Assembly: GCA_964016885.1 (NCBI GenBank)
Contig: OZ024742.1
Location: forward strand, 239,816,001 to 239,880,000
Length of the DNA: 64,000 bases
Reading direction: 5' to 3'
Source: Eledone cirrhosa
Lineage: Eukaryota
Shown here: positions 14,290-64,000 of the stretch, piece by piece
How positions within the stretch are numbered: the stretch's first letter is position 1
Layout: the number at the start of each line of letters is the position of its first letter
Translations under genes and position numbers: made by a program
The notes under the pieces: model-generated
What the model saw: only the letters and a program-made list of their open reading frames with translations
Told to the model about the DNA's origin: nothing
Databases searched by the model: none

Positions 14290-14322
<33 letters not shown>

Positions 14323-15053
14323 TTAACATCCACTTTCCCTGCTAGCAATGGTTGGATGGATCTACATAGACCAAGTCATTACTGAAGTGGGACTACTGAC
14401 CTTCCAGGCTGGCTGAGGGGTCTGCATCCTGTTTACGTATGGTCATACGTTCTAGTGAGTACAAAGGAGAAGTTGTCATGTCTTTTGGCGCAAACCGAAG
14501 GGTCTTCCCAACCCCTTGTTTAACAAGCTTTCTACAGCTGGATGCCCTTCCTAACACCAACCACTTTACAGCATGTACTGGGTGGTTTTATTGTGTAGAT
14601 CACCAGCAATAGGGAGGTTGTCATGTCCTTGACACAACTGAAGGGTCCTCCCAACCCTTGAAGGTTGTTCGTAAGGAAACTAGACAGAAGCAATATGACA
14701 AAGTGGGTAACAGAGGAGAGATTGATGATGGGAGAAAAAATCTGGTAGTTTAGAGTCTCTTGCACCAGTGGTCTCTTGCATTTGTATTAACTGCAGATGT
14801 TGCAAAACAATATTTTTGCAGAGTGTACTAGGTGTATTTCATCATGGCACCAGCACTAAGGAAGTTGCCATATCACTGGCAGACTAAAGAGTCTTCACTG
14901 TCCTATAAAACAACACTATGACTGCATCACATAAAAAAATTAAAGCCTTTGCTCTAATACTGCAAATTTTCACAACAATCTGTTCATTAGTAAAGATACT
15001 ATTAACATTTGAATTAATAAACCTAGTTTTTAGATATTATTTGCTAAATCATT

Positions 15054-20940: not shown

Positions 20941-22229
20941 TGCATCATCATCATCATCATTTTATGTCAACCTGCCATTTAAGCATGGGTTAGACATGTT
21001 GTCAAAGCCCAAGATTAGACAGGTAAGAGATACCTTGTCTTGCTCATATGTTCCCTATTTCGCATGGTTTTGTATGGCTGGATGCCCTTCCTAAAACCAC
21101 CCACATTACAGGTGTGTTTTATCATGTCACTAGTACTACTCCTTTACAGAGTGTACTGGGCACATTTTATAATGACATCAGCACTACCACAGTATACTTC
21201 CATGGTATAAAGACACAATCACTACATTATAACATCCCATACTCTAAAGATGAAGAGTACATAACAAGAACACTCAAGGTTGCTAGAAATGTTAAGATTC
21301 ACCATCATATATGAGTGTGTAACCTTTGTATAGCCAAAACTGCATCACAAATTACTGGGTTTCCTTTTACCATCCAGGAAATACATCAGCCTCCAATAAT
21401 TATTAACCCTTTTGATACCAAATTGTTGGCAACCAAACCTGGTTCTATGATATAAAGCTGTTTGTTTTAAAGTGTTTATATTTATCTAAAATCCTTCCAC
21501 CGTAATTTTAAGTAAGAACTTGTGATGTGCTGAATTCCAAACATTTTCTGGACACATATTTTGCTCAGGATTGAACATGTAATCCCACCCTCATTCAATT
21601 ATCATATTTATCACATACTTACATGACCCCCCCCCCCCACCCCCCTCTGCATGCACACACACACAGATCTACTACATAATGGAACATACCAGACACATCT
21701 TAAGACACCTGCATTGTCTGACAAAACAGTCACATAGCTGTGACCTCACCACCACCACCATTTATGGTTATGCTATTTAATACACCTTTTGTCTACAGTA
21801 AACAACTTCTGACTTAGACAGTTTTATTGGTGGCCACTCCTCTCAGGACAGGCTTAACTTGACAGCTAGTTTTACTCATTTCAGAACCATTAAGTTGTGC
21901 TTCAAACATGAACTCAATAATGAGTAAGTTCATTATTATGACTAAATTATTCCAATTTCTTTATTATTTTCAAAATTATTCGAAAATCACAATGTTTAGA
22001 AATATGATAAAGAAAGTGTTAACCTTTTTCAACCTATGGTGAGAACTACAATTAAGGCACCTAATTAAACTGACTCCAGTGCTGGACTGGGACTTTATTT
22101 TATCAACACCAAAAGGATAAAAGCTAGAGTTGACCTCTGCAAGATTTGAACTCAAAACACAGACAGTTCGAATGAATATGGAGAAGAATTCTACCTGGCA
22201 TTCTAATGACACTGACTATACTATAATAA

Positions 22230-24160: not shown

Positions 24161-24191
<31 letters not shown>

Positions 24192-24828
24192 GTTTAACGT
24201 CCATCTTCCACGCTAGCATGGGTTTGGACGGGAATGTTCCCACTTGAGGCAAGATTGGTTGTCTTGCTCGTATAGGACTGTCTGGCGGGTTTTCTACGGC
24301 TGGATGCCCTTCCTAACACCAACCACGTTTACAGTGTGGACTGGGAGGTTTTTACCGTGTTACCTACACGGCCACATTACGGCATGGACTGTGTTTTTTT
24401 TGTCGTGACACCTACACGACTTCATTTATTTCGGACTGGATGTTGTGGTACCAACATAACTTTACATCGAGGGGGGGGGGGGGGGGGGGGGTATTTTGGT
24501 AAGAGGTCCCTACTGACTGTAGGTTTCGCTTTGCACTTAGGAAAGGCGGGTCTTCTGTATTACTGTGTAGCGCCAAAGATCTCGATCCAGTGACATTGTC
24601 TTGGAGAGGTGTAAGTGTGTGAGGTCGGAATTTATCAAGTCATCCCAGGTTTTTCTGGGTCTGCTACCATCTATTTTTATTGGCCTGCACTTTTTTATAC
24701 AGTTGTCGTCTTTCATGCGCATCACGTGACCATACCAATGTAGTCTTCTCTCGAGTAAACAGCATCTGATCCCTCTTATTCCTAATTTCTCACTTAGTTC
24801 ATTTATGCTTTGCCGTTCATGTATATTA
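24161..24828 (-). mobile_element. Short 3' fragment of the same RTE subfamily as 43110-44895, inserted in a MITE
   Basis: Near-identical to 43110-43790 by eye; RRLHWYGHVMRMKDD translation; (CAT)n tail. Confidence 0.92.
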
Positions 24829-28094: not shown

Positions 28095-28761
28095 CTAAAA
28101 TATCGGAGAGTTGAAATGAGAGAGAAAGAGAAAATAATAGTGAAGAGTTATTAATATGACAACCACTTCAACAACTGAGTATATTAACACAATTGAAAAA
28201 TCATCAATAAAACAATGGAAAAGTATTATTAATTACAGTTATACAATAACAAAGAGAAGGAAAACATAAATAGATAAACAATAAAATATGTTAATGAGAA
28301 ATGTGGTTAAAAAGCAGATTAGTAAGAGTGACACAAGCAAAGTTTCATTAAGTTATATTTAAATACATTTATGTTTAACAGAAATGTATATGAAAGCATA
28401 TACAATATATTTATGTATAATAAAAAGCATACATAGGTCTCAGTGTGGGCATTTTAAGCTGTCACCACTATCTCAATAACCATGTGAGGATGACAAACAC
28501 TTATATTTCAGGATCTTTATCCATCTTTAGTGATGTTTACTCACTCAGTACTCATTCAATACATTTATATTATATATGCTTTCACATACACCTCCATTAT
28601 GAATCACGCTATGTTAATGCTACTGTTAAGTTAATTAATATGTTTGGCAAATCACACAGTTCAATATTATTTTATACAATACTAGCTGACACTGTGGAAA
28701 TTCCAGTTTAATTAGAAACAACTACCAAGTATTAACGATCAATGTTTTATTTGTAAATCAT

Positions 28762-29520
28762 ATCATCATCATCGTTTAACATCCATTTTCCACGCTAACA
28801 TGGGTTAGATGGGTTGTCCCGTTGTGAGACCAGTCAGATCAGATGACTGTGTCTTGCTCAAACAGAACCGTTTCTGGCTTGGTTTTTATGCATGGATGCC
28901 CTTCCAAATGCCAACCACATTTACAGTGTGGGATGGATGCTTTTTGTTATGTCAGCAACATGACCACTTGCATTGTGGGCTGGGTGTCTTATCGTGACAC
29001 CGCAACAACCACTTTACAATGTGGGCTGGGTGCTTTTTGTCATGATACCAACATGACGACTTTACAGTTTAAACTGAGCCCTTTTTTGCTGTGGCACCAA
29101 AACAACCATTTTACAGTGTAGGCTGGGGACTGGAGCAGGGGGTGTGAAGGTGTGGGTGGAGTGTTAGGGTTTGGGCGGTGTATGGAAAGAGAGAGGGAGG
29201 ATAGGTGTTAAGTAGTGCATACTATATATATGCTTCAACCCAAGCACTTCTGTACTGTTGAACAACGCCAAAGATCTCAATACTATGTCATTGCAATTGT
29301 GCAAGGTCAGTTTTTATCATATCATGCCAAGTCTTCCTACTCCATAGCTTTCATCAACTTTGACTGCCCTACACATTTTTATACAGCTGTCATTCTTCTT
29401 ATGCATCACATGCCCATACCAATGTAATCAACTTTCCTGCAAACTGCATCTGATCCCTCTTATGCCCAGTTTCTCTCTCAGTTCATTTTACACTTTGCAG
29501 TTCATGTATACTACTATTAC
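28762..29520 (-). mobile_element. Decayed 3' fragment of an RTE LINE
   Basis: Degenerate LRWYGHVMR region, ~48-bp 3' UTR repeats, terminal motif and (CAT)n tail. Confidence 0.8.
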
Positions 29521-39600: not shown

Positions 39601-40427
39601 CTGTAAAATGTAATGTAATGTAATGTAATGTAATGTGTCCATTAAAGACCCCTGTGATGATCAGGAAATCAATGTCATTCGTTAGTGCAGTAGTGTGCAC
39701 TAGGGATTCGTAAAAACCTATCTTGTTTGTCTCACAACCCAGATTGCAGATATAATTGTGGTAATTGTTGTATTTATGACTAGTCTGATTTTTAATGATT
39801 CTCACATTCACTCTATTTACAGAGATTCTACCAATTTGACAGCTAATAAGATACCTACTCCCCAACAGTCAGTTGTCATTTCCTACCAAGAAAAATTTAT
39901 AGCACTGTTTTTTGCCTACAAGGAATCTAGCTGACTCTCCTCTCCATTTAGTCTCTTGCACACAACAATTTTCTTCTGCTCTAGCATCTCTCCTGTTCTT
40001 TCTTTCATTGTGCTCACATTGATGGTGCCAATTCAGATATTTGGGTATTTGCCGTCATTGATAGAGGAAGATGAGGATGGGCACTTGTGGAGGTTGGGGT
40101 GGGTGTATGTTTTCCGTATTTGAAATAAAGAAGGTTCACATGGTCGCCTGGAAATACATTGTTTCATATATTTGTATTTAGGATTGTTCCATCATTTCAG
40201 CCCGTCCATAATAAATGAAAATCTCCAAGAACAAAAAAGATAGTAGCAGCAGTAGTCGCATTTAGCAGTTACTGCCACAAATAGTGGGATGAAGGGATCT
40301 TTGTATTGCTGCGGTTTGATTAGCCTAAGAGGGTAGATCAAATGTTTATAGAAAGTATGAAATAGATACATGAAATAGGATAGAGCTGTTGTTGTAGTAA
40401 ATTTTGGAGTTTGTAAGTTACACATGA

Positions 40428-40430: not shown

Positions 40431-41350
<920 letters not shown>

Positions 41351-42250: not shown

Positions 42251-43109
42251 AATAATGACTTTTAGCAATTTACATGATTGTTTTACAAATGTAGCAGCAA
42301 TTTTTAAAAGGAATGAGAGAAACAGTTAAGGATCTGAAAGGAGTAGCTCATTATCTTGATAATATACTCATATGAGGTCAAAATAAAAAGATTCATCATG
42401 AAATTTTGCAAGTTTTCTTAACATTTGAAGTCCTGTACGACATGAATTAGCAAGACATTCGCAAGTACAAACAAAATTATTACTGCATCATATTAAAAAT
42501 AAAAGTCTTTACTCTAATACTGCAAATTTACATAATCTGTCCACTCCTAAAAATATTATAAACATTTGAATTAGCAAACCTGTTTTGATATATTTTCTGT
42601 TAAATCATTACAGGATGTTTAAGAGTTAAATCTTGAGCTGAGGTAAAAGTTAAAAGCCAATTGAAAAAAAAAATATCAAAAACCTACCACTACAAGCAAT
42701 GAAAGGATGAAAGTCATAGTTGACCTTGATTTGAACTCAGAATGCAGTGGGCCAGAACAGATACCAAGACATTTATAATCGGATTCCCTAAAGACTCAGC
42801 CAATTTGAAGCCCTCATGCATATACATACGTATGTAATAATTATGTATACATGTATGCACAGGTTTCCTTAGGCACATACAAAACAAACCAAAACATAAT
42901 TCACTATTGAATGCATGAACAAACCCAAAACTAAAAACTAAATTGAGATTTTCAATTTAAAACTTTTGTCTGGATCATTCCTTTTCTCAAATGTTCATCA
43001 TGGTCGAATGTGAGAAAAGAGGGAGGGGAAGAAGGAGTACAAAAACCTGCAACAAACACATACATACAAATTTGTGTGTGTCTGTGTAATTTTATATATA
43101 TATATATAT

Positions 43110-44895
43110 CATCATCATCATTTAACGTCCATCTTCCACGCTTGCATGGGTTTGGATGGGAATTTTCCCACTTGAGGCAAGATTGGTTGTCTTGCTCGTA
43201 TAGAATTGTCTGGCGGGTTTTCTATGGCTGGATGCCCTTCCTAACACCAACCACGTTTACAGTGTGGACTGGGAGGTTTTTACCGTGTTACCTACACGCC
43301 CACATTACAGCGTGGACTGTGTGTATTTTTTTTGTCGTGACACCTACACGACCTCATTTATTTCGGACTGGATGTTGTGGTACCAACATAACTTTAGTTC
43401 AAAAGGGGTGGTGTGAATGCGTGTGTGTGTGGGGGGGGGGGTATTTTTGTTAGAGATGCCTACTGACTGTAGGTTTCGCTTTGTACTTAGGCAAGGCGGA
43501 TCTTCTGTATTACTGTGTAGTGCCAAAGATCTCGGTCCAGTGACATTGTCTTGGAGAGGTGTAAGTGTGTGAGGTCGGAATTTATCAAGTCGTCCCAGGT
43601 TTTTCTGGGTCTGCCTATTCCGTGGCTACCGTCTATCTTTATTGCCCTGCACTTTGTTATACAGCTATCATCCTTCATGCGCATCACGTGACCATACCAA
43701 CGTAGCCTTCTCTCTAGTAAACAACATCTGATCCCTCTTATTTCTAATTTTTTCCTTAGTTCGTTTATGCTTTGTCGTTCACGTATATTACTATTACACA
43801 TCCAGCGGAGCATGCAAGCTTCGTTCCTCTCCAGTCTGCATATATCCTCTGCACACAATGCCCAAGTCTCACTGCCATGTAACATTGCAGTTCGTATGCA
43901 GGCATCATACATCCTACCTTTCATTTTTTGAGAGAACCCTTTAGCGGCCAAAAAGTGGTATAAGCTCTCTGAACTTTTTCCATCCCGTTCTGACTCTAGC
44001 TACTGTACTTTCAGAGCACCCTCCACCACTGCTGATTTTGTCACCCAAGTAACGGAAGGTGTCCACTATTTCTATAGAACCATCTGTGCAATGGAATGAG
44101 CTAGTATTCTGTGGGCACTTGCTGCTACTTATTGCACCTGAGCACCGGCCACATATAAAATCTATATTCTTAGTTAGCTTACCTGTGATCCCACTACATC
44201 TTTTATGCACCCATACTTTGCATTTGGGACATAAAATGGAGTTTCTGCCTACTCCTTTCCTACACACTGAGCATGGCCATTTCCCAGATGGGACCAGTGC
44301 CCTATTTTCCTTCCTACAAACTAGAACTTTAGTCTTAGACAGGTTAATTTTAAGGCCTTTTGATTCTAGGCCATGCTTCTATGTTTGGAATTTTTCTAGT
44401 TCAGCCATTGATTCAGCTATGAGCGTTAGATCATCTGTGTATAGAAGTTCCCATGGGCAGCCGGTCTTGAACTCCTGTTATAGCCTGATGGGCAATAATA
44501 AATAGTAGGGGCTAAGGACGGAGCCCTGATGAACACCAACTTTTATGCTAAACGCTTCACTATATTCGTTGTTAATTCTAACCTTGCCGACTGTTTCTTT
44601 ATACATGGCTTGTATAGCTCTCACAAGCCATTCATCAACACCTAGTTTTTTAAGAGCCCACCAGAGCGAGGTACTCTGTCAAAGGCTTTCTCCATGTCAA
44701 CAAAAGCTAAGTATAGGGGTTTACTTTTAGCTAGGTACTTCTCCTGTAGTTGTCGTACAATGAAAAGAGCGTCTGTTGTACTTTTACCTGACACAAGCCC
44801 GAACTGCATTTCATCTAGATCAATTCTCTCTCTGATTAGTTGCGTTATTACTTTTTCTGTAACCTTCATGACCTGGTCAATTAATTTAATGCCTC
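43110..44895 (-). mobile_element. 5'-truncated RTE LINE copy (RT, PHD and C-terminus, frameshifted)
   Basis: ORF fragments 44642-44869, 43941-44267 and 43487-43951 are homologous to LINE B. (CAT)n tail at 43110, flanked by (TA)n. Confidence 0.93.
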
Positions 44896-45015
44896 TCTCT
44901 CTCTATATATATATATATCTAGGGAGTGTAACTTGGAGTTACTGTAGGTTCACCCGGGTGAGCACTCGATGTTTAGGTTCACTTCTGTGTCGAGGTGTAG
45001 AGCTATAAATAGTAT

Positions 45016-46269: not shown

Positions 46270-47668
<1,399 letters not shown>

Positions 47669-47869
47669 CGTAATATAATTTTCAATTGCATATGGAATGT
47701 TTATTTTATATTATCTCTTAAAACCTTGTACCACATGAGACTGCATTAACAAGACATTCGGAAAATGTATGAAACAGCACTGATTGTATCACATGAAAAA
47801 TTACAACCTTTACGCAAGCCAATAAAATAGAAGTGGTTACTGGGAAGGCAAAAAAGAAAGACAAAGAGA

Positions 47870-53497: not shown

Positions 53498-53620
53498 TTT
53501 TGGCAGTGGGCTCTTCATCAATTTGATATTCACTTTATTCACGGTACTCAAATTGATTTAAAAATAAAAATGAATAAATAGATTATTTATCTATCTATTC
53601 CTCTAAATATATATATATAT

Positions 53621-53965
53621 CATCATCATCATCATCATCATCATTTTACATCCACTTTTCCCTGTTTGCAAGGGTGGGACGGGAACTGATTCTGGCTTGA
53701 TTTCTACAGCTGGATGCCCTTCCTAACACCAACCTCATTTACAGTGAGTGCTGTGTGCTTTTTTGCCGTGGCACCTCCACGACCACTTTACAGTGGAATG
53801 ATAGGGACCCCAGTCCTATCATCTCATTTCTACAGCTGAGTAAACTGGAGCAATGTGAAATAAAGTGTCTTGCTCAAGGAAACAACACATCATCCGGTCT
53901 GAGAGTTGAACTCACAACCTTTCGATTGCAAGGCCAATGCTCTAACCACTAAGCCATGTGCCTCC
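53621..53965 (-). mobile_element. Young mosaic tRNA-derived SINE with RTE-derived tail (copy 2)
   Basis: Near-identical to 40671-41015 and also embedded in (TA)n. Confidence 0.9.
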
Positions 53966-54333
53966 ATATATATATATATATTTATTTATTTATTTATGTG
54001 TGTGTACTATCATCATTAAATGATGATATGTAGGTGTGTGTGTGTGTATTATCATCATTTGTGATGATATATGAGTATGTGTGTGTATCATTGTCAACAT
54101 TAAATGATGAGATGAGTGTGTGTATTGGGAGAGGTTGAGGTAAAGAACAAGTGAAATAACTTTAAATTGAATGCTCTAAAATATTTGTTGACAATATAAT
54201 GGTGAACAAGTGGAAAAGAAGAACAAAAGTGTATATGATATGGTATGGCATGATTTATGCAGACAAAAATATATAGGATATAATATGCCATGATATATGT
54301 GGAACAAAATTGTATATGATATTATTATTGTTA

Positions 54334-57300
54334 TTGTTATTATATACAAGCCGAACTGGACTGGGAAAGGTCAACAGTTGACATGATAGTGATTTTGACG
54401 ATTTTGACTTTGATTTTGATTTTGTATCAGAACTGTCGGTAATATATGTATATATATATATGTTTGTGAGTTGTGTGTGTGATTGTATGCATGAATGAGT
54501 GTTGGTATGTGTGGTTGTGGTTTGTATGCATGAGTATTAGTGTGTGAGTCGTGTCAATAAGTTTTTTTTTTTTTTTTTTTTTTTTTTAAATGACCATGCT
54601 GTAAAATGGAGGGGTAGAGAGGGCCCTTGAGTCTAGTAAGACATCCTCTCTAGTGCTGGTGGCACAAATAAAAGCACCCAGTCCATGCTGTAAAGTGGCG
54701 CTGGTGTTAGGAAGGGCATCCAACCAGTGTATCAATGCCAAAAAGCTTATCAGCACAGCAACAAAACAGCATAGAAAAAAAAAAATATGAAGACGTCGCA
54801 TCTCAGAGTTGCAACACTTAATGTTGGCACTCTCAGAGGTAGATCTGCTGAAATAGCGGAGATGCTGGAGAGAAGGCAGGTGGATGTGTGCTGCGTGCAA
54901 GAGGTGAGATGGAGAGGTGCCTCTGCGAGACTAGTCGTAGGCAAGCGTCTTAGCTATAAGCTATTCTGGGTAGGTAAGGATGATGGGTTAGGGGGAGTAG
55001 GCATTTTCCTGGCTGAGAAATGGATCAATAAGACAATAGAGGTAGTTCGAGTTAGTAATCGAATAATTAAGCTTAGATTAGTTGTAGGTAGGAGACTACT
55101 GACAATCATCTCGGTCTATGCTCCCCAAGCAGGCCTAGGCAAAGATGAGAAAGACTGCTTTTATGAGCAACTTTTGCAAACAACCACAATGACAGAGGAC
55201 GGAGACATCGTTATGCTAGCAGGAGACTTCAATGGTCATGTTGGACAGCTCCAGGATGGTTACACTGGGGTACATGGTGGGCATGGTTACGGTTCAAGAA
55301 ATGAAGAAGGAGTGAGACTTCTTGAATTTTGTGATGCAAGTACATTGACTATTTGCAACACAAACTTCCAGAAACCTGCCAATCACCTAATAACCTACAA
55401 ATCTGGTGAGCACATAAGCCAGATTGACTTCCTGCTAGTTAGGCAGCGGGACAGGCAGATAGTGTCTAATACCAAGGCATACCCTGGGGAAGAATGTACC
55501 CCACAGCATAGGTTAGTTGTTAGTGATATCTCAGTAAGCAAGAGATGGAATGAGCCATATAGGAAGGTGTGGAGAAGAAAGGTCTGGAAGCTAAAAGACC
55601 TTTCACTAAAATTCAAATTTAGGAAAGCCCTTCAAGATGTATATGACGAAAAAGAAGACGATTTAGAGACGTATGACATAGATAATAACTGGAAGTTCTT
55701 ACGTGACAACTTGCTGAAGGCTACTGATGAAACTTGTGGCTGGAGCAGAGCCCCAACCAGACAGAGAGTGACCTGGTGGTGGAACAGCAGTGTAGATAAG
55801 GCTATTAGAGACAAAAGACTAGCATGGAAGGCTTGGAATAAGGGTGGGAGTAGGGAAGAATATACAGCCACTAAGAGAGAAGCTAGACGTCAGGTGTACT
55901 TAGCACGCAGGGAGGCAGAGAGTAGGAGGTTTGCCAATGTTCTGCGACGGGAAGATCAGAGGCGTGCGGTGTTCCACATTGCAAGGCAGTGTGTCAATGC
56001 AAATCAGGATGTTGTTGGTGATAAATGTGTCCGGGATGATGCCGGTGTACTTAGTGTCACGAATGACCAGAAAAAGGAGGCCTGGAAATGCCATTATGAG
56101 AGACTGATGAATGTGGAGAACGAATGGGAGAGAGAGAAATTACCCTTGGTAGATCCGACAGAGGGACCAGCTATTGAGATTGACGAATATAGGGTCCAAG
56201 AGGCGATTAGGGAAATGAAAAATGGTAAGGCGGCCGGACCATCGGGAATAGTTGCTGAGATGCTGAAGGCATCAGGGGACGTAGGCACTAAACTGGTTGC
56301 ACGCATAATCAATCAGGCTATATATGGTGGTGTCATACCCAAAGACTGGTGCAGCAGTATTCTCATAAATTGCTACAAAGGTAAAGGGGATGCTTTGGAG
56401 AGGAGCAATTATAGGGGTATAAAACTGATAGATCAGGTTATGAAAGTGGCAGAAAGGATTTTAGCACAACTAATTAGAGAAAGGGTCAAACTAGATGAGA
56501 TGCAGTTTGGTTTTGTGCCTGGGAAGAGTACAACAGATGCCCTCTTCTTGGTGAGACAAATGCAAGAGAGGTTCTTAGAGAAGAATAAGCCACTATACTT
56601 GGCCTTTGTTGACCTAGAGAAGGCCTTTGATAGGGTACCCCGATCTGTCATCTGGTGGTCCCTAAGGAAGCTGGGTGTTGAGGAATGGCTTGTAAGGACA
56701 GTGCAAACTTTGTACAGAGGTACTCTCAGTAAAGTCAGGGTAGGAATGGAGTTTAGTGAGGAATTCCAGATACAAGTAGGAGTACATCAGGGTTCGGTCC
56801 TCAGCCCGCTCTTGTTCATTATAGTCCTCCAAGCCATAACAGAGGAGTTTAAGACTGGCTGTCCATGGGAACTTCTCTATGCTGACGATCTGGCTCTTAT
56901 GGCAGAATCAGTAGAGGAGCTAGAGAATAAATTCCGGCTATGGAAACAGCAGTTGGAAGCAAGAGGACTGAGAGTAAATCTAGCTAAGACAAAAGTGTTG
57001 ATGAGTAGAAAAGATGACAAAACCCTGATTCCGTCAGGGAAATGGCCATGTTCGATATGCAGAAAAGGAACTGGCATAAATTCTATAAAATGCACACAAT
57101 GTAAGTCCTGGGTACACAAGAGATGTAGCGGGATAGCAGGCAAACTAACAGGTAGGGAGAAATATGTATGCAGTAGATGTACAGGGAAATTAGACAGTAG
57201 AAGTCGCACTGATAGACACATTTTTCAAATGCGAGAGGGCGCTATAGAAGTGGTGGATAGCTTCCGGTACCTAGGAGATCAGATTAGCATGGGAGGAGGG

Positions 57301-57878
57301 TGTTCCGAGGCCATAGTATCTAGAATAAGGACGGGTTGGAAGAAGTTTAGGGAGCTGCTTCCTCTGTTGACGAAGAAGGGTTTCTCCCTGCGTACGAAAG
57401 GCCGGTTGTATGATGCCTGTGTGAGGAGCGCGATGCTGCATGGTAGTGAGACATGGGCAGCTACCGCAGAAGATATGCGACGGCTGGAGAGAAATGAGGC
57501 AAGCATGCTCCGTTGGATGTGCAGTGTAAATGTGCGTGAACGACCCAGCATAAATGTGTTGAGAGAGAAACTGTGTCTGAGAGGGATAGAATGTAGTGTA
57601 CGGGAGAGGAGACTGAGGTGGTATGGACATGTGATGCGCATGGAGGATGACCGATGGGTGAAGAAGTGCCAGGAAATGCCAGTTGAAGGAAGACGTAGTA
57701 GAGGTAGACCACGAAAAACATGGGCGGAGGTGGTGAGAACAGACCTCAGATCATTGAAGCTCACGGTGGAGATGACGAGGGACCGTGACGAGTGGAGAGA
57801 TGCTGTGCTGAATAAGACCCGTCCCACCCTTGCAAGCAGGGAAAAGCGGACGTAAAATGATGATGATGATGATGATGG
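54334..57878 (+). mobile_element. LINE A, putatively full-length RTE retrotransposon
   Basis: Intact single ORF, (GAT)n tail directly after the stop, and a candidate 11-bp TSD tattattgtta at 54323-54333 and 57879-57889. The 5' boundary is tentative. Confidence 0.85.
54787..57855 (+). CDS. LINE A ORF: RTE-clade APE endonuclease + reverse transcriptase + PHD-like zinc finger (1022 aa, intact)
   Basis: APE motifs TLNVGTL, CCVQE, YAPQ, GDFNGH, SQIDF. RT motifs NYRGIKL, QFGF, AFVDLEKAFD, GVHQGSVLSP, YADD. RTE-type C-terminus RRLRWYGHV and RGRPRKTW. Confidence 0.96.
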   Translation: MKTSHLRVATLNVGTLRGRSAEIAEMLERRQVDVCCVQEVRWRGASARLVVGKRLSYKLFWVGKDDGLGGVGIFLAEKWINKTIEVVRVSNRIIKLRLVVGRRLLTIISVYAPQAGLGKDEKDCFYEQLLQTTTMTEDGDIVMLAGDFNGHVGQLQDGYTGVHGGHGYGSRNEEGVRLLEFCDASTLTICNTNFQKPANHLITYKSGEHISQIDFLLVRQRDRQIVSNTKAYPGEECTPQHRLVVSDISVSKRWNEPYRKVWRRKVWKLKDLSLKFKFRKALQDVYDEKEDDLETYDIDNNWKFLRDNLLKATDETCGWSRAPTRQRVTWWWNSSVDKAIRDKRLAWKAWNKGGSREEYTATKREARRQVYLARREAESRRFANVLRREDQRRAVFHIARQCVNANQDVVGDKCVRDDAGVLSVTNDQKKEAWKCHYERLMNVENEWEREKLPLVDPTEGPAIEIDEYRVQEAIREMKNGKAAGPSGIVAEMLKASGDVGTKLVARIINQAIYGGVIPKDWCSSILINCYKGKGDALERSNYRGIKLIDQVMKVAERILAQLIRERVKLDEMQFGFVPGKSTTDALFLVRQMQERFLEKNKPLYLAFVDLEKAFDRVPRSVIWWSLRKLGVEEWLVRTVQTLYRGTLSKVRVGMEFSEEFQIQVGVHQGSVLSPLLFIIVLQAITEEFKTGCPWELLYADDLALMAESVEELENKFRLWKQQLEARGLRVNLAKTKVLMSRKDDKTLIPSGKWPCSICRKGTGINSIKCTQCKSWVHKRCSGIAGKLTGREKYVCSRCTGKLDSRSRTDRHIFQMREGAIEVVDSFRYLGDQISMGGGCSEAIVSRIRTGWKKFRELLPLLTKKGFSLRTKGRLYDACVRSAMLHGSETWAATAEDMRRLERNEASMLRWMCSVNVRERPSINVLREKLCLRGIECSVRERRLRWYGHVMRMEDDRWVKKCQEMPVEGRRSRGRPRKTWAEVVRTDLRSLKLTVEMTRDRDEWRDAVLNKTRPTLASREKRT

Positions 57879-57892
57879 TATTATTGTTAATT

Positions 57893-59165
57893 GACGTTAT
57901 TATTGTTAATTTTACTGATGTAGTATTAACTTATTAACTTGGATATTTACCATGCGGTATTCTAATCCTATTGTAATCCTATTCTAATCCTATTGTATCT
58001 CTCTCAGTTATTTACCATGCGACCCTCAGTTCCTACCCCCCCCCCCTCTCTATGCACTTCTTTAAGGCTTACTACCCTGTCTTTAACCTAATTCATTCAA
58101 TCTGAAAATATTGAAGAGATAAGATACTTTCCCATTCTTCTCTGCTAAAATGTATCACTAGAGCTGATTCCAATTATTCCAGCCATCTACGAAGGTATTT
58201 TAGCCTACATATTGTCGTTAATATTATGATGTTCCCTGCTGTATTAGCGTTAAATTTTCCCTGCTGTATTAGCGATAAATTTTCTAGGGTTTCTCTTAGT
58301 AGTTTTTTCATGACATTATTATTGTTAATTTTACTGATGTAGTATTAACTTATTAACTTGGATATTTACCATGCGGTATTCTAATCCTATTGTATCTCTC
58401 TCAGTTATTTACCATGCGACCCTCAGTTCCTACCCCCCCCCCCCTCTCTATGCACTTCTTTAAGGCTTACTACCCTGTCTTTAACCTAATTCATTCAATC
58501 TGAAAATATTGAAGAGATAAGATACTTTCCCATTCTTCTCTGCTAAAATGTATCACTAGAGCTGATTCCAATTATTCCAGCCATCTACGAAGGTATTTTA
58601 GCCTACATATTGTCGTTAATATTATGATGTTCCCTGCTGTATTAGCGTTAAATTTTCCCTGCTGTATTAGCGATAAATTTTCTAGGGTTTCTCTTAGTAG
58701 TTTTTTCATGACATTATTATTGTTAATTTTACTGATGTAGTATTAACTTATTAACTTGGATATTTACCATGCGGTATTCTAATCCTATTGTATCTCTCTC
58801 AGTTATTTACCATGCGACCCTCAGTTCCTACCCCCCCCCCCCCCTCTCTATGCACTTCTTTAAGGCTTACTACCCTGTCTTTAACCTAATTCATTCAATC
58901 TGAAAATATTGAAGAGATAAGATACTTTCCCATTCTTCTCTGCTAAAATGTATCACTAGAGCTGATTCCAATTATTCCAGCCATCCATCTAATCTACGAA
59001 GGTATTTTAGCCTACATATTGTCGTTAATATTATGATGTTCCCTGCTGTATTAGCGATAAATTTTCTAGGGTTTCTCTTAGTAGTTTTTTCATGACGTTA
59101 TTATTGTTAATTTTACTGATGTAGTATTAACTTGGATATTTACCATGCGACTCTCAGTTCCTACA
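57893..59165. repeat. Tandem array of three near-identical ~385-420 bp units plus a partial fourth
   Basis: The unit start ttattattgttaattttactgatgtagtattaac recurs near 57897, 58316, 58714 and 59098. Confidence 0.95.
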
Positions 59166-59189
59166 TCACAATTTCCCCCCCCCCCCCAC

Positions 59190-62100
59190 CCCCACACACC
59201 ACCATAGTCTATTCGACCAATCAAACCTAGCATGCCATTTCCACTGCTGCTGCTACTACCTGCCTAACTAACTCTCTCCTCCTCTGGCGCATCCCAACAC
59301 ACCCTGCCATTACCCCACCACCACTGTTCTTCTAGCCCTCAATTTTCCCACCGTTATGGATGGATGAGCTGGGAATACACGAGCAACTCTGAATCAATAG
59401 ATGAAATATGAATCTGCGAGCTACCAAGCACCCACGTGAAGCGCCAACCCAGAGACCCTCCCCTACGAGTGTCGACAAATGCCCAAAACTCCGAGTTGGT
59501 ACCATCAATGTAGGCTCAATGAAAGGAAGAGCAGGAGAAATCGTAGAAATGCTAGAGCGAAAGGAAGTTGATGTATGCTGTGTGCAAGAGGCTAGATGGA
59601 GAGGAGGGTCTGCTAGAGTCCTTGTAGGAAAAAGCCAGTGCTACAAATTTTTCTGGGTGGGAAATGACGATGGGATGGGTGGTGTAGGTATACTATTAGC
59701 TGACAAGTGGGTAGATAAAGTAATCTCAGTGTACAGGGTAAATGCAAGAATCATTAAACTCAGACTAGTCCTGAATAAGACAATTACCACAATAATATCA
59801 GCTTACGCACCCCAATCGGGGCTGCCAGACGAACTTAAGGATAGGTTTTACGAGTCCCTAATACACACTACTGCTCTAACAGACGACAAGGACTTCCTAA
59901 TCATTGCAGGAGATTTTAACGGACACGTAGGTAAACACTGCGACGGCTTCAATAGAGTACATGGAGGCCATGGAGTTGGCACAAGGAATGAGGAAGGATT
60001 CAGACTTCTAGAATTCTGCGACGCCAATGACATGTCGATATGTAACACAAACTTTAAAAAACCCGACAACCACCTGATCACCTATAGATCAGGGGAGCAC
60101 TCTAGTCAGTTAGATTTTATCCTCATCAGAGGACGTGACAGATGGACGGTCGTAAACACAAAAGCCTTCCCTAGTGAGGAATGTACATCCCAACATAGCT
60201 TAGTTGTCAGCGACCTCACGGTCAGAACTAGACGAGCCCTGAAACAGAGGCCAACCTGGAGAAGAAAGATCTGGAAGCTGAAAGTCCCCTCAACCAGTAA
60301 CAGATTTAAAGATATTTTACTCAACGCCTACGACAGTAAAGAAGAACAGATAGAGACATTTAACGTAGAAGAGAACTGGGAGTTCCTAAAAAATAACTTA
60401 CTAGAGGCGACGGATGAGGTTTGTGGCTGGAGTAAGACCTCAAGCAGGAGGAGAGTGACTTGGTGGTGGAACAATAAGGTAGATGAAGCAGTCAAGGCCA
60501 AGAGACAGGCATGGAAAGAATGGAAGAACGGGGGGAGCAGGGTACATTACATAGAGACCAAGAGGGAAGCTAGGCGACAAGTATCCTTAGCTAGGAGGGA
60601 AGCAGAGGATAGAAAATTCAAGCATGTTTTACAACGTGAGGACCAGAAACAGGAGGTATTCAAGATTGCGAGGCAGTGTGTCAGAGATAGTTGTGATGTC
60701 ATTGGAGAGAAGTGTATCCGGAATGATAAAGGTGAGCTTGCCCTCACAAGTGCTGAGAAGAAAGATGCATGGAAGAGTCATTATGATAGATTACTAAATG
60801 AGGAGAATGCATGGGAAGAAGAGACCCTACCCCACGTAGACCCTATAGAGGGACCAGCAGTACAAGTCAGCGGCAGCGTAGTAAGTAAGGCAATCAGAGA
60901 TATGAAGATAGGGAAGGCAACCGGTCCATCGGGTATAGCTGCCGAGATGCTGAAGGCATCTGGGTCTGTAGGTCACACTATAACCACACGTATCGTTAAC
61001 CAGGTAATACTAGAGGGGGCCATACCAAAAGATTGGTGCAGTAGCATCATTGTCAACTGCTACAAAGGTAAAGGCGAATCACTAGATAGAGGAAACTATA
61101 GAGGTATAAAGTTGATGGACCAGGTCATGAAAGTAACAGAAAGAGTTATAGCACAGCTGATTAGGGACCGGGTGAATATAGACGAGATGCAATTTGGGTT
61201 TGTACCAGGGAAAGGCACCACTGATGCCCTCTTCCTTGTGAGGCAATTACAGGAAAAGTACCTAGCTAAAAGTAAGCCACTCTACTTGGCATTTGTCGAC
61301 CTTGAGAAAGCCTTTGACAGAGTTCCACGTGCAGTAATCTGGTGGGCTCTTAGAAAACTAGGAGTAGATGAATGGCTTGTGAAAGCGGTACAAGCCATGT
61401 ATAGGGGAGCAGTCAGCAAAGTTAGGATTGGCAATGAGTATAGCGAGGAATTTAGCGTACAGGTTGGGGTCCACCAGGGCTCTGTTCTTAGCCCTCTCCT
61501 GTTCATCATAGTCCTGCAGGCAATAACGGAGGAGTTTAAGACCGGATGCCCATGGGAACTCCTGTATGCTGATGACCTCGCACTCATAGCTGAATCTATG
61601 GTAGAACTAGAGAATAAATTCCAAACCTGGAAGCAGGGACTAGAGAGAAAGGGCCTCAAAGTCAACATGACAAAGACTAAGGTCCTTGTAAGTAGACGAG
61701 AAAACAGAACCCAGATCCCCTCAGGGAAATGGCCTTGCTCAGTATGTAGGAAAGGTGTAGGTAGGAACTCCATTCTCTGCCCCAAATGCAAACAATGGGT
61801 ACACAAGAGATGTAGCGGGATCTCAGGAAGCTTAATTAAGAATGTAGGATTCACATGCAGCAGCTGTGCTGAAACAGCAAGCAAACAGCCACAGGAAACA
61901 AGTACCACCAATCTCTGGGAGGGCCCTGTAGAAACAGTAGACAGCTTCTGCTACCTAGGTGACCGAATTAGCAACGGAGGTGGGTGCTCAGAAAGTACAA
62001 TAACTAGGGTAAGAACGGGATGGAAGAAGTTTAGGGAACTACTACCACTGCTAGCTGCAAAAGGCTTCTCCCTCAGAATGAAAGGCAGACTGTATGATGC

Positions 62101-62840
62101 GTGTATCCGAACAGCGATGTTGCATGGTAGTGAGACCTGGGCGCTGAAGGTGGAAGACTTACGTAGATTAGAGAGAAACGAAGCCTGCATGCTCCGATGG
62201 ATGTGTAACAGTAATATACGTGAACGACAAAGCATAAAGGAATTGAGAGAGAGACTGAGCATAAGAGGAATCAAATGCTGCGTGCAGGAGAGGCGGTTAC
62301 GCTGGTATGGACATGTGATGCGTATGAAGGATGACAGCTGCATAAAAAGGTGCAGAGCACTAGAAGTTGATGGAAACCGCGGAGTGGGGAGACCCAAGAT
62401 GACTTGGGATGAGGTGATAAAAGCCGACCTTACCCAACTACACCTCTCAAAGTCAATGACACACGACCGTGACTTCTAGCGTCACGCAGTAATACAGGGT
62501 ACCCGACCTCCCATGGGTACATGCTGAAGCATATAAACAATATGCCCCCCCCCCCCCCCCCCGCAAGGTGGCCGTGGAGGTGCCACGGCAAAAAAGCACC
62601 CAGCCCACACTGTAAAGTGGACGTGTAGGCGCCACGAAAAAGCACCCAGCACTCACTGTAAATGAGGTTGGTGTTAGGAAGGGCATCCAGCTGTAGAAAT
62701 CAAGCCAGATCAGTTCCTGTATGAGCAAGGCATGGTCAGCCGACCAGACACTGCCCACAACAGGACAACCCGTCTAACCCATGCTAGCGTGGAAGAACGG
62801 ACGTAAAACGGTGATGATGATGATGATGATGATGATGATA
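59190..62840 (+). mobile_element. LINE B, near full-length RTE retrotransposon with ~330-nt 3' UTR
   Basis: ORF, poly-C tract, GTTAGGAAGGGCATCC module, terminal CCATGCTAGCGTGGAA..CGGACGTAAA motif and (GAT)n tail. The 5' end may extend through the upstream tandem array. Confidence 0.88.
59408..62479 (+). CDS. LINE B ORF: RTE-clade APE endonuclease + RT + PHD-like finger (1023 aa)
   Basis: Same motif set as LINE A but a clearly different subfamily. Ends at a TAG where relatives have TGG. Confidence 0.95.
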   Translation: MNLRATKHPREAPTQRPSPTSVDKCPKLRVGTINVGSMKGRAGEIVEMLERKEVDVCCVQEARWRGGSARVLVGKSQCYKFFWVGNDDGMGGVGILLADKWVDKVISVYRVNARIIKLRLVLNKTITTIISAYAPQSGLPDELKDRFYESLIHTTALTDDKDFLIIAGDFNGHVGKHCDGFNRVHGGHGVGTRNEEGFRLLEFCDANDMSICNTNFKKPDNHLITYRSGEHSSQLDFILIRGRDRWTVVNTKAFPSEECTSQHSLVVSDLTVRTRRALKQRPTWRRKIWKLKVPSTSNRFKDILLNAYDSKEEQIETFNVEENWEFLKNNLLEATDEVCGWSKTSSRRRVTWWWNNKVDEAVKAKRQAWKEWKNGGSRVHYIETKREARRQVSLARREAEDRKFKHVLQREDQKQEVFKIARQCVRDSCDVIGEKCIRNDKGELALTSAEKKDAWKSHYDRLLNEENAWEEETLPHVDPIEGPAVQVSGSVVSKAIRDMKIGKATGPSGIAAEMLKASGSVGHTITTRIVNQVILEGAIPKDWCSSIIVNCYKGKGESLDRGNYRGIKLMDQVMKVTERVIAQLIRDRVNIDEMQFGFVPGKGTTDALFLVRQLQEKYLAKSKPLYLAFVDLEKAFDRVPRAVIWWALRKLGVDEWLVKAVQAMYRGAVSKVRIGNEYSEEFSVQVGVHQGSVLSPLLFIIVLQAITEEFKTGCPWELLYADDLALIAESMVELENKFQTWKQGLERKGLKVNMTKTKVLVSRRENRTQIPSGKWPCSVCRKGVGRNSILCPKCKQWVHKRCSGISGSLIKNVGFTCSSCAETASKQPQETSTTNLWEGPVETVDSFCYLGDRISNGGGCSESTITRVRTGWKKFRELLPLLAAKGFSLRMKGRLYDACIRTAMLHGSETWALKVEDLRRLERNEACMLRWMCNSNIRERQSIKELRERLSIRGIKCCVQERRLRWYGHVMRMKDDSCIKRCRALEVDGNRGVGRPKMTWDEVIKADLTQLHLSKSMTHDRDF

Positions 62841-64000
62841 GTATGATATGATATGGTGTAGATCCAAAATGTATATATGGTATGATGGGATGTAGAACAA
62901 AAATTTATATGATGTAGTACGGTCTAGTATGGTGTGATGTAGATAAAAAATGATATGGTGGAATGTTGGACAAAAATGCATATGGTATGGCATGATATAT
63001 ATATAGAACAAAAATGTATGTATGATATATGTAGATCATTATTTAATGTAACACAACACAGGATGCAGTAAAAAAAAAATTGGGTTAAAAGGTTTGATTA
63101 AAAAAAAAAAAACCTACAGCTATCACTTTCAGTTGAGTGTCATCTGGTGGTAGTTACTACGTTTTCACTAAGGGTTTTACAGCCATAAGCTGACACAGAT
63201 ACCCTCTCAACCCTTCCTTTCTTGATCCAACAGAAAATCGAAAATGTGACAATTGGAAGGAGAGAAAGCCACACCAGCACTTGGCTGGTAGATACATTCT
63301 TTATCAACTGCAAAAGGGTAAAAGACAAAGTGGACTATGGCAGGATTTGGACTCAGAATGTAAAGACAAGTAACAAATAACCAGCACTCTAATGAGTATA
63401 TCAAATTGACAGTGGGCATATTCTGAGCCCAAACAGTTTACATGACCACATCTTGCTCACATGTTCCATTATGGCATGGTTTTATGACTGGATGTCATTC
63501 CTAATGCCAATCCCTTTACAGCATATACTGAGTGTATTTTATTGTGACACTAGCATTACCACTTTACAGAGATATTAGATATCTTTCTCAGTCTGTCATG
63601 GCTTACTAGTTTTACAATGAAAGACATTTCAATCGATTAAATAAACAAATAAAATACACCAAATATTTTATGGCAATGAAATTGTAATTATGTACACATC
63701 AAAGTGAGAGAGTGGGAAAGAGAAGGGGGAAAGAGATGGATAGATGGGAGCATTATTTAAATCTAAAATCTATAAACACTAAATTGCCAGAGTAAAAGTC
63801 AAAACACCAAACAGATGAAGAAAAACATTTGGAAATCTTTCCACTTTCATTGCATCCAAGAAAACAAGAAAAGAGAGAAGGGAAAAGGAAGATAAATTAT
63901 ATTTTTAAAGAAAGATTTTTCCAAGAATTTAATATTCAAGAAATACAATAAGTATAGTTGCTTACTACAAATGATTGATGTTTAGTAGCTATGTACTTGA

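What the first reader, a model, noticed from the sequence alone, without database searches (positions are those of the whole stretch)
62480..62840. The same RTE module lies in the 5' UTR of LINE A but the 3' UTR of LINE B
The block aaagcacccag..ctgtaaagtgg..tggtgttaggaagggcatcc lies upstream of the ORF in LINE A (~54670-54722) but downstream of the ORF in LINE B (~62590-62700). In LINE B it follows a vestigial-looking end (gtacccgacctcccatgggtac) and a poly-C tract, and precedes a second terminal motif and (GAT)n. The four minus-strand relatives (24161, 28762, 36697, 43110) share the LINE B layout, so this is a stable lineage feature. Bipartite non-autonomous RTEs (5' UTR piece plus 3' tail) are known. 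The inference is that an autonomous LINE lineage adopted such a bipartite element as its new 3' end. Each insertion could then carry a potentially independent mini-element or SINE tail. Short stand-alone versions occur near 14292-14620 and 20943-21190.
Basis: partly seen in the sequence, partly recalled or inferred. Interest (0 to 1): 0.72.

Follow-up and report, generated by a model that had tools for sequence, protein, structure and literature searches.

The report
RTE jumping gene with borrowed tail
Two young RTE-type jumping genes share a 70-90-letter non-coding module that lies before the gene in one lineage and after it in the other, where it likely arrived when a small gene-less RTE derivative was fused behind the element's original end; this is a new variant of a known way in which such elements swap parts.

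Summary
A 70-90-bp module in LINE A's 5' UTR (54653-54744) is homologous to LINE B's 3' UTR (62623-62709) and to the 3' UTRs of four older B-like copies.

LINE B's 3' UTR is flanked by two homologous RTE ends. The first is the element's own, and it is still coding. The TAG at 62477 is private to this copy: 20 of 20 other copies read TGG and run to 62527. The second end (62762-62811) keeps a fossil ORF end, RTTRLTHASVEERT*. LINE A ends in [14 protein letters not shown].

A discrete non-autonomous family (14295-14659) has an A-type 5' UTR piece plus an A-type tail, so bipartite donors exist in this genome.

The "independent mini-element" idea found no support: 0 of 20 sampled copies stand alone. 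Within the B lineage the module's box is more conserved than the tail. A hairpin and two other helices covary; a pseudoknot is inconclusive; Rfam finds nothing.

This is a new variant of Kojima's bipartite-RTE/SINE-body scheme, of moderate interest.

The parts
54321..57877 (+). LINE A, a full-length RTE-type element with a compact 3' end
   Evidence: Of 12 fetched long copies, 10 begin homology exactly at 54321 (the other 2 at 54343 and 54366); 4 copies chosen for a shorter match begin at 54563-54572. Single ORF with Exo_endo_phos and RVT_1 domains. The ORF stop lies 2 nt before the (ATG)n run.
54653..54744 (+). Module inside LINE A's 5' UTR (5' UTR 54321-54786; ATG at 54787): hairpin, A-run, GCACCCAG, CTGTAAAGTGG, and the box GGTGTTAGGAAGGGCATCC
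   Evidence: It lies in all 40 long genomic matches. The pattern module-ATG-AATGTNGG gives 1046 hits against 0 for the control, with at least 4 subfamily variants among the 100 rows listed. It is homologous to five B-lineage 3' UTRs.
57815..57877 (+). LINE A 3' tail, which overlaps the last codons ..[13 protein letters not shown] and runs into (ATG)n
   Evidence: 84% identical to LINE B's distal tail, 91% to the SINE tail and 86% to the NA1 tail.
57878..59407 (+). LINE B 5' UTR: about 2.7 tandem 398-bp monomers (57980-59066) plus a unique part, with no module
   Evidence: TRF. Genomic copies carry monomer arrays. The regex scan finds no box between 54722 and 60908.
59408..62527 (+). LINE B ORF (APE + RT). 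In this copy it is cut short by a private TAG at 62477-62479; the family frame ends at TGA 62525-62527
   Evidence: 20 of 20 other copies read TGG. Nearly all contig depth in 4 runs reads G at 62478.
62498..62545 (+). LINE B's original RTE end, now internal. It encodes GTRPPMGTC* and is followed by a decayed tail remnant, gaagcatataaacaatatg
   Evidence: tblastn with the LINE A protein reads through to 62521. It is colinear by eye with compact B-like ends found in the genome.
62546..62563 (+). Poly-C spacer, whose length varies between copies
62572..62667 (+). Two tandem units of about 47 bp: hairpin, A-run, GCACCCAG, and a CTGTAAA loop closed by CCAC/GTGG or CTCA/TGAG
   Evidence: The number of units varies (2 to about 4) among B-lineage copies, and among contigs there are joints that skip 44-47 bp or go back 37 bp. 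Helices covary.
62668..62709 (+). Conserved box ttggtgttaggaagggcatccagctgtagaaatcaagccaga
   Evidence: It lies in the best-conserved block of five B-lineage 3' UTRs: the block 62656-62690 that overlaps it has mean pairwise identity 0.87, against 0.78 for the tail and 0.51-0.70 for the other blocks.
62762..62840 (+). Second (functional) RTE tail, with a fossil ORF end RTTRLTHASVEERT* (62762-62806) and (GAT)n
   Evidence: Read from the sequence. 84% identical to LINE A's tail over 61 bp.
53619..53965 (-). SINE: tRNA-like head, CORE-like body, 117 bp that are 92% identical to LINE B 3' UTR 62608-62720, and a LINE A-type tail. A second copy lies at 40669-41015 (-).
   Evidence: 40 of 40 scored genomic matches (the window's own copy among them), the other 39 at 91-98% identity. 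Rfam tRNA 27.3 bits, below the cut-off of 29. ARAGORN finds none.
14295..14659 (-). NA1, a discrete bipartite non-autonomous RTE: an A-type 5' UTR piece plus an A-type tail
   Evidence: 121 bp at 77% to LINE A 54612-54722, and 63 bp at 86% to LINE A's tail. Most of the 39 other full-length genomic copies start at the same base. No RT remnant nearby.
20943..21190 (-). NA2, an old RT-less copy of the unit array, box and tail
   Evidence: Genomic relatives are 71-82% identical and most start at the first unit.
24162..24827 (-). Old B-lineage copy with the same 3' UTR layout. Three more lie at 28757-29487, 36693-40101 and 43108-44896 (all on the minus strand).
   Evidence: tblastn: all four are closer to LINE B than to LINE A. 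3' UTR alignment.

Best explanation
The 3' UTR of the LINE B lineage likely arose when a small, ORF-less, RTE-tailed element carrying a piece of an A-type RTE 5' UTR was joined behind the original 3' end of a compact RTE, and the composite then became the master copy. Shown directly: LINE A and LINE B are single-ORF APE+RT elements with 66% amino-acid identity. The module is part of LINE A's 5' UTR in every copy examined, and part of the 3' UTR in five B-lineage copies. LINE B's 3' UTR lies between two homologous RTE ends. The proximal end is its own coding C-terminus plus a decayed tail. The distal end is a second tail that still reads as the last 14 codons and stop of an A-like RTE. A bipartite non-autonomous family, NA1, with both A-type parts exists in the genome. 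Inferred: the join was made either by insertion of the small element at the LINE's terminal microsatellite followed by read-through transcription, or by template switching of the reverse transcriptase. After the join, reverse transcription would start at the distal tail, so the proximal tail was free to drift at the DNA level while staying coding. Also inferred: the module is kept by selection as a cis-acting element that works on either side of the ORF. It is most likely an RNA fold (hairpin units plus an invariant box) bound by the element's protein or a host factor. A SINE in the window combines a B-type module with an A-type tail, which shows that these parts are still being exchanged.
For: Module integral to LINE A: all 40 long matches span it. 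Of the 12 fetched long copies, 10 start at 54321. There are 1046 module-ATG pattern hits against 0 for the control, in at least 4 subfamilies. Module in the B lineage: five 3' UTRs match LINE A 54653-54744 at E 1e-8 to 3e-11, and all have RT remnants nearer to LINE B. Three further B-layout copies turned up among 30 random module sites (L039, L041, L066). Two ends: the LINE A protein aligns through LINE B's stop to 62521; the distal tail is 84% identical to LINE A's tail and reads RTTRLTHASVEERT* against LINE A's [14 protein letters not shown]. The proximal end gives no BLASTN hit to LINE A's tail, as expected if it was released from tail function. Donor type exists: NA1 is a discrete family with both A-type parts. 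The old end can serve as an end: among 14 loci with a B-type C-terminus followed within 25-55 nt by (TGA)n, six have a B-like ORF upstream, and some stop at the old-tail position. No B-type 5' UTR module. Constraint: box core identity 0.87, tail 0.78, the other blocks 0.51-0.70. Structure: 76% of cells paired against 69% in shuffles and 27-49% with slid partners; 132 against 54 double-sided changes; 0 of 500 shuffles reach the observed values. The window also shows one RTE lying head-on against another RTE's (GAT)n tail, at 57877/57878. Precedent: bipartite RTE pieces are appended to other retroelements (Kojima 2018, PMC5786205, sections read; Kojima 2020, PMC7245038, passages read).
Against: The direction of transfer is not proven. 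No RT phylogeny with outgroups was made, and B-layout copies are both old and numerous: 2386 forward-strand hits for the extended form against 12 forward hits for compact forms. The compact forms may therefore be secondary deletions or internal priming rather than ancestors. No (GAT)n remnant is clearly visible between the old tail and the appended part. The 5' UTR piece comes from the middle of the 5' UTR, not from its 5' end, unlike classic internally deleted RTEs. The core motif of Kojima's conserved RTE 5' UTR domain is absent, so his evidence that such domains are at home in 5' UTRs applies only by analogy. A function for the module is untested. RNAalifold gives only a weak consensus (-1.97 kcal/mol). 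The pseudoknot stem shows little covariation. The helices were counted on an alignment fitted to them. The conservation estimate rests on five sequences.
Confidence: 0.62

Rival explanations
1. Reverse flow. The module's original home is the long 3' UTR of B-type RTEs. Short 3' fragments and SINEs spread it, and the A lineage later took it into its 5' UTR, for example by 5' transduction or template switching onto a short element.
For: B-layout copies are old (about 75% identity among subfamilies) and abundant. Of 30 random module sites, 3-4 are in the B layout and none in the A layout. LINE A's 5' UTR looks composite: it has a poly-T tract at 54562-54587, where 5 of 40 copies begin.
Against: This does not explain why LINE B's 3' UTR is bracketed by two RTE ends with a fossil ORF end in the distal one. 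LINE A's 5' UTR has no tail or microsatellite remnant next to the module. NA1 pairs the module with 50 more bases of LINE A 5' UTR sequence and an A-type tail. Published cases run from RTE 5' UTR to SINE body (PMC5786205).
Confidence: 0.15
2. Independent capture. The module belongs to an abundant SINE or non-autonomous body of unknown origin, and both LINE lineages picked it up separately, A in the 5' UTR and B in the 3' UTR.
For: Most module sites are short RT-less elements: about 26 of 30, out of 1804 pattern hits. The SINE shares 117 bp at 92% with LINE B, so exchange with short elements is going on now.
Against: Neither LINE carries the SINE's tRNA-like head or CORE-like part. The A-lineage position is fixed relative to the ATG across at least 4 subfamilies. 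For the B lineage this rival is the same as the main explanation.
Confidence: 0.15
3. Chance neighbour. The sequence upstream of LINE A is an unrelated adjacent insertion.
For: None found.
Against: All 40 long genomic matches contain it. 16 of 16 fetched copies carry it, and in the 12 long ones homology runs a further 300-350 bp upstream to a shared start at or near 54321.
Confidence: 0.01

Closest known systems
Bipartite non-autonomous RTEs and RTE-derived SINE bodies (Kojima 2018, Genome Biol Evol, PMC5786205; sections 7, 15 and 22 read, supplement searched)
   Same: Pieces from the middle of RTE 5' UTRs are joined to RTE 3' tails. They occur alone or behind a tRNA head and CORE domain, as in WALLSI2, MAR1 and SINE2-2_ACar. 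Here NA1 and the window's SINE have these architectures. That paper also describes tail exchange between lineages.
   Different: Here the recipient is an autonomous RTE. The bipartite piece sits behind the LINE's own retained end and has been kept through several subfamilies. The sequence is not Kojima's conserved domain: its core motif is absent from the window.
Stacked chimeric SINEs of hagfish (Kojima 2020, Mob DNA, PMC7245038; passages read)
   Same: A bipartite RTE derivative is appended to the 3' side of another retroelement, by DNA recombination or template switching, so that parts from two RTE families lie in series.
   Different: The recipients there are SINEs, not a coding LINE, and no duplicated coding end is described.
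LINE 3' transduction and read-through (human L1; recalled, no paper read here)
   Same: Sequence downstream of a LINE is carried along when transcription runs past the element's own end.
   Different: L1 transductions are one-off events that end in poly(A). Here the added piece supplies a specific RTE tail and became a fixed part of a lineage.
Stringent LINE 3' tail recognition (zebrafish ZfL2, eel UnaL2; PMC4176376, search listing and start of abstract only)
   Same: The reverse transcriptase recognises a specific 3' terminal RNA that is shared with partner SINEs. This explains why a borrowed tail can work.
   Different: Recognition by these RTE proteins is not tested here. The conserved module lies 60-150 nt upstream of the tail, and in LINE A it lies in the 5' UTR.

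Membership tests
RTE-clade LINE (LINE A and LINE B) | Single ORF with an N-terminal apurinic-type endonuclease and a reverse transcriptase, and no ORF1 | tested here: met
   Exo_endo_phos and RVT_1 in both ORFs. One long ORF per element.
RTE-clade LINE (LINE A and LINE B) | Very short 3' UTR that ends in a short tandem repeat | tested here: inconclusive
   LINE A meets it: the stop lies 2 nt before (ATG)n. LINE B ends in (GAT)n but has a 3' UTR of about 313 nt, so it departs from the rule.
RTE-clade LINE (LINE A and LINE B) | Placement inside the RTE clade on an RT tree with reference elements | not tested
No reference LINE set (Repbase or Dfam) was available.
Bipartite non-autonomous RTE (NA1, and the piece appended to LINE B) | A 5' part homologous to an autonomous RTE's 5' UTR | tested here: met
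   NA1: 77% over 121 bp to LINE A 54612-54722. LINE B piece: 77% over 70 bp. Five B-lineage copies match.
Bipartite non-autonomous RTE (NA1, and the piece appended to LINE B) | A 3' part homologous to the RTE 3' end | tested here: met
   NA1: 86% over 63 bp. LINE B distal tail: 84% over 61 bp to LINE A's tail.
Bipartite non-autonomous RTE (NA1, and the piece appended to LINE B) | Retains the very 5' end of the parent LINE, as is usual for internally deleted RTEs according to PMC5786205 | tested here: not met
   The shared stretch starts at 54612 or 54653, about 300 bp inside LINE A's 5' UTR. In this respect it resembles SINE bodies rather than classic internal deletions.
Bipartite non-autonomous RTE (NA1) | A discrete family with fixed ends and no ORF | tested here: met
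   Most of the 39 other full-length copies begin at query positions 241-252. No RT hit nearby.
[quoted passage not shown] | The conserved core sequence (motif taken from the paper's supplement alignments) | tested here: not met
   0 matches in the window with up to 3 mismatches. Only a loose resemblance by eye.
[quoted passage not shown] | Lies in the middle of RTE 5' UTRs and recurs in SINE bodies behind a CORE-like part | tested here: met
   LINE A module at about 330-420 of a 466-nt 5' UTR. SINE layout.
Self-cleaving ribozymes and other Rfam families | A match to a covariance model | tested here: not met
   No hit at gathering score in the whole window. At E up to 1 in 53500-64000, the only hit is a tRNA-like match in the SINE head.
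tRNA-derived CORE-SINE (53619-53965) | tRNA-derived head | tested here: inconclusive
   Rfam tRNA 27.3 bits against a cut-off of 29, E 0.029. ARAGORN finds none. A-box-like and B-box-like motifs were seen by eye against recalled consensus sequences.
tRNA-derived CORE-SINE (53619-53965) | CORE domain | not tested
   The resemblance to the mammalian MIR core is recalled from memory only. No reference sequence was available.

The most novel reading that the evidence does not exclude
The module is a position-independent cis-acting RNA element that RTE machinery needs on its template, for example for RNP assembly or template choice. The B lineage swapped its 5' UTR for promoter-like tandem monomers and survived because it had the module in its 3' UTR. 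The same requirement would explain why RTE 5' UTR pieces persist as 'bodies' in so many SINEs.
Probability: 0.2. Interest if true: 0.75.

Novelty: new variant of a known kind. Interest (0 to 1): 0.45.

Why it matters
Why SINE bodies and RTE 5' UTR pieces are conserved is an open question. In this genome two active-looking autonomous lineages carry the same module on opposite sides of the ORF, alongside partner SINEs and bipartite elements. That is a natural position-swap experiment. It suggests that the module acts in cis wherever it sits, and it offers ready constructs for a retrotransposition assay. It also documents an autonomous LINE renewing its 3' end by taking up a non-autonomous relative. 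This is the reverse of the usual flow, in which SINEs borrow from LINEs.

Tried and rejected
- Rfam found no ribozyme or other family, both at gathering score on the whole window and at E up to 1 on 53500-64000.
- ARAGORN found no tRNA.
- RNAalifold on 42 module copies gave only a weak 7-pair consensus without covariation.
It is 72.6% paired, but its covariation is not clearly above shuffles: 10 of 500 shuffles reach the score and 88 of 500 reach the count of double changes. I leave it open.
- The core motif of Kojima's domain is absent.
- A literature search for the module's letters found only unrelated primer matches to the 11-mer and nothing for the two longer strings. The module's letters are also not in the Kojima 2018 supplement.
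- Three topic searches turned up no description of an autonomous RTE with a 5' UTR module in its 3' UTR. Repbase and Dfam could not be searched, so this is not proof of absence.
- No RNA holder was listed for LINE B's 3' region, so expression and internal transcription starts could not be examined. The contigs laid cannot show starts or levels.
- The similarity between the poly-C spacer and LINE B's own 5' UTR is low-complexity only.
- The LINE A-LINE B junction occurs nowhere else: 0 of 14 other hits span it. The pair is therefore not a propagating composite.
- Searching earlier findings by sequence gave only unrelated hits, and the search by place near the finding gave nothing.
- Stand-alone mini-elements starting at the poly-C tract: 0 of 20 sampled copies. 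That sample consists of the best-scoring matches, so it is biased.
Full report
**Setting.** The window is G000:C3:239816001-239880000 of a roughly 3-Gb animal genome that is full of retroelements. I did not test that.

**The two LINEs.** LINE A (ORF 54787-57855) and LINE B (ORF 59408-62479) each have one long ORF.
- Both ORFs have an N-terminal Exo_endo_phos endonuclease and an RVT_1 reverse transcriptase. Both also give a weak PHD-finger hit.
- They are 65.7% identical over 1000 residues.
- Both families are young. Genomic LINE A 5' regions are mostly 97-100% identical to the window copy. Forty of 40 scored matches to LINE B's 3' UTR are 99-100% identical.

**Checking the observation.**
- BLASTN of 62480-62840 against the window hits 54670-54722 upstream of LINE A's ORF (83% over 53 bp, E 6e-9).
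- With gentler scoring the match grows to 54653-54722 against 62623-62689 (77% over 70 bp, E 6e-11).
- The same query hits the four minus-strand relatives over 260-273 bp at 74-77%.
- Each of those relatives lies just downstream of RT remnants that are closer to LINE B than to LINE A.
- A MAFFT alignment shows one shared layout in all five: ORF end, a C-rich spacer, 2 to about 4 units of about 47 bp, a conserved box, a variable stretch of about 60 bp, the tail and (GAT)n.
- All five 3' UTRs match LINE A's 5' UTR at 54653-54744 (68-78% over 70-91 bp, E 1e-8 to 3e-11).

It is not.
- A genome search with 54400-55100 returned 40 long matches (self included), all spanning the module. Thirty-five reach back to position 71 of the query or earlier, and five start at the poly-T tract.
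- Sixteen copies were fetched with 2 kb of upstream flank: 12 long ones and 4 chosen because their match began at the poly-T tract. Of the 12, ten begin homology at exactly 54321, one at 54343 and one at 54366. The other four begin at 54563-54572.
- LINE A's 5' UTR is therefore 54321-54786, and the module sits in its second half.
- A pattern that links the box to an ATG 40-70 nt downstream and then to the conserved AATGTNGG of the endonuclease start gives 1046 hits, against 0 for the reversed control. The 100 listed rows are almost all A-type and fall into at least four linker variants.
- The 5' UTR position is thus a stable feature of the A lineage.
- LINE B's 5' UTR consists of about 2.7 tandem 398-bp monomers plus a unique part and has no module. 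Neither does the 5' UTR of the near-full-length old B copy.

**Anatomy of LINE B's 3' side.**

1. The TAG at 62477-62479 is private to this copy.
   - Twenty of 20 other genomic copies read TGG there.
   - In contigs of four public runs, essentially all depth reads G at 62478.
   - The family ORF continues ..FWRHAVIQGTRPPMGTC* to the TGA at 62525-62527.
   - So the 'vestigial end' is coding. It is nevertheless the element's former end. tblastn with the LINE A protein aligns through to 62521, and in LINE A the matching codons (..[20 protein letters not shown]) are the 3' tail itself, with the stop 2 nt before the microsatellite.
   - Behind LINE B's stop lies gaagcatataaacaatatg. By eye this is colinear with the ggaagaacggacgtaaaacgatgatg of compact B-like ends elsewhere in the genome.
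2. The distal tail (62762-62811) reads RTTRLTHASVEERT* in one frame. That is 8 of 14 residues plus the stop shared with LINE A's end. It is 84% identical to LINE A's tail over 61 bp, whereas LINE B's proximal end gives no BLASTN hit to LINE A's tail. The 3' UTR is therefore bracketed by two homologous RTE ends, and the outer one is the better preserved as a tail.
3. Between the two ends lies the sequence that is homologous to an A-type 5' UTR.

**A donor of the right kind exists.**
- The element at 14295-14659 (minus strand) shares 121 bp (77%) with LINE A 54612-54722 and 63 bp (86%) with LINE A's tail. It has no RT remnant nearby.
- It belongs to a discrete family. Most of the 39 other full-length matches start at the same base, at 81-86% identity, out of 5372 first-look candidates.
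- This is a bipartite non-autonomous RTE in the sense of Kojima 2018 (PMC5786205, sections 7, 15 and 22 read), except that its 5' piece comes from the middle of the 5' UTR.
- The window also holds two copies of a SINE (53619-53965 and 40669-41015). Its order of parts is: a tRNA-like head (Rfam 27.3 bits, below the cut-off; ARAGORN finds none); a body that I recall as CORE-like; 117 bp at 92% to LINE B's 3' UTR; and a tail at 91% to LINE A's.
- The SINE family is confirmed by 40 of 40 scored matches (the window's own copy among them), the other 39 at 91-98% identity.
- This is the tRNA-CORE-RTE 5' piece-RTE tail architecture that Kojima lists for WALLSI2, MAR1 and SINE2-2_ACar. The mix of B-type and A-type parts shows recent exchange.

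**Mechanism of origin (inferred).** A bipartite, A-like element became joined behind the end of a compact B-type RTE, and the composite took over as the master copy.
- The join could come from insertion at the terminal microsatellite followed by read-through, or from template switching. Kojima 2020 (PMC7245038, passages read) proposes the same two routes for stacked SINE chimeras.
- The window offers a picture of the first route. LINE B's first monomer abuts LINE A's (ATG)n at 57877/57878, and the pair sits in one 40-bp minisatellite. That junction is unique in the genome (0 of 14 other hits span it), so it only illustrates the idea.
- Compact B-like ends exist but are rare. Sixteen pattern hits at 14 loci have a B-type C-terminus followed within 25-55 nt by (TGA)n.
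  - Of the ten distinct loci fetched, six have a B-like ORF directly upstream (70-97% amino-acid identity to LINE B), two are short truncated copies and two look unrelated.
  - Some end at the old-tail position. Others join the coding end straight to a distal-type tail.
- By contrast the extended form gives 2386 forward-strand hits.
- The compact forms may be relics, internal-priming products or deletions between the two homologous ends. I cannot tell which, so they support the homology of the two ends more than they support the order of events.

**Does the embedded piece act on its own?** In a sample of 20 near-identical copies of 62560-62840, all 20 continue upstream into LINE B ORF sequence. 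Their ends are either beyond the fetched 600 bp or at scattered truncation points (62019, 62029, 62248, 62324, 62456). None starts at the poly-C/unit boundary. The sample consists of the best-scoring matches, so it is biased, but it gives no support to an independent mini-element. No RNA run was available.

**What the module is.**
- A pattern for the A/NA1-type module gives 1804 genomic hits against 0 for the control.
- Of 30 sampled sites, three are in clear B layout (L039, L041, L066), one is ambiguous, none is in A layout, and the rest are short RT-less elements.
- Among the five B-lineage 3' UTRs, the box core has mean pairwise identity 0.87, the tail 0.78 and the other blocks 0.51-0.70 (only five sequences).
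- I built a covariance model from a hand-proposed structure and used it to align 96 hits, 95 of them distinct.
  - On that alignment 76.3% of cells pair, against 68.6% in shuffles (0 of 500 reach it) and 27-49% with slid partners.
  - There are 132 double-sided changes, against 54 expected.
  - The unit hairpin has 11-16 double changes in four of its six pairs. The 3-bp CAC/GTG stem that closes the CTGTAAA loop is 88% paired. The long-range TTGGTG/..GCCAA helix is 81% paired.
  - These helices were in the model, so the counts lean towards them.
- The pseudoknot stem (hairpin loop GGTGC with GCACC behind the A-run) was not in the model. It is 72.6% paired, but its covariation is weak. I call it possible, not shown.
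- Rfam has no match.
- The invariant box TTAGGAAGGGCATCC does not vary enough to say whether it is read as structure or as sequence.
- The core motif of Kojima's pan-metazoan RTE 5' UTR domain is absent. This module is therefore analogous to that domain in place and behaviour, but it is not shown to be a member.

**Verdict.** Two side points are corrected: the 'vestigial' end is coding, and there is no sign of autonomous mini-elements. Against what is in print, this is a new variant: an autonomous RTE lineage that renewed its 3' end by taking up a bipartite relative, with the same module kept on opposite sides of the ORF in two active-looking lineages. The searches found no description of this. 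Repbase and Dfam could not be consulted.

Noticed in passing
window 57878-59066; e.g. G000:C1:341365812-341373151: LINE B's 5' UTR is built of tandem monomers of about 400 bp (2.7 copies here). Other genomic copies carry long arrays, with about 18 successive matches at one locus. This recalls the promoter monomers of mouse L1.
   Followed up: partly
window 62477-62479: This LINE B copy has a premature TAG at a codon that reads TGG in 20 of 20 other copies and in nearly all contig depth of four runs. The window copy is therefore truncated by 16 codons relative to its family.
   Followed up: yes
window 54220-54322 and 62842-62986; junction 57877/57878: LINE A and LINE B lie head to tail inside one 40-bp minisatellite, and LINE B's first monomer abuts LINE A's (ATG)n tail. 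The junction is unique in the genome.
   Followed up: partly
LINE A aa 755-798, LINE B aa 777-820 (window about 57049-57180 and 61736-61867): Both RTE ORFs give a weak Pfam PHD-finger hit just above the cut-off (25.5 and 27.2 bits against 24), downstream of the RT domain.
   Followed up: no
window 62572-62667; G000:C4:338862405-338862910: The unit of about 47 bp varies in copy number between LINE B copies (joints skipping 44-47 bp or going back 37 bp).
   Followed up: partly
window 54562-54587: A 26-base poly-T tract divides LINE A's 5' UTR. Five of 40 genomic copies begin there, which could mean a truncation hot spot, a second start site or a composite 5' UTR.
   Followed up: no
window 62000-62600 (runs X4, X5): Contigs from runs labelled as two other coded organisms cover LINE B's ORF end with only 2-4 differences in about 550-600 bp. 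The young family is therefore shared by, or the samples are very close to, the window's species.
   Followed up: no
window 47139-47749: A stretch of about 600 bp is open in all six reading frames (six ORFs of 158-189 aa). It is presumably a stop-free simple or low-complexity repeat.
   Followed up: no
The window holds at least 14 module sites in 64 kb.
   Followed up: partly
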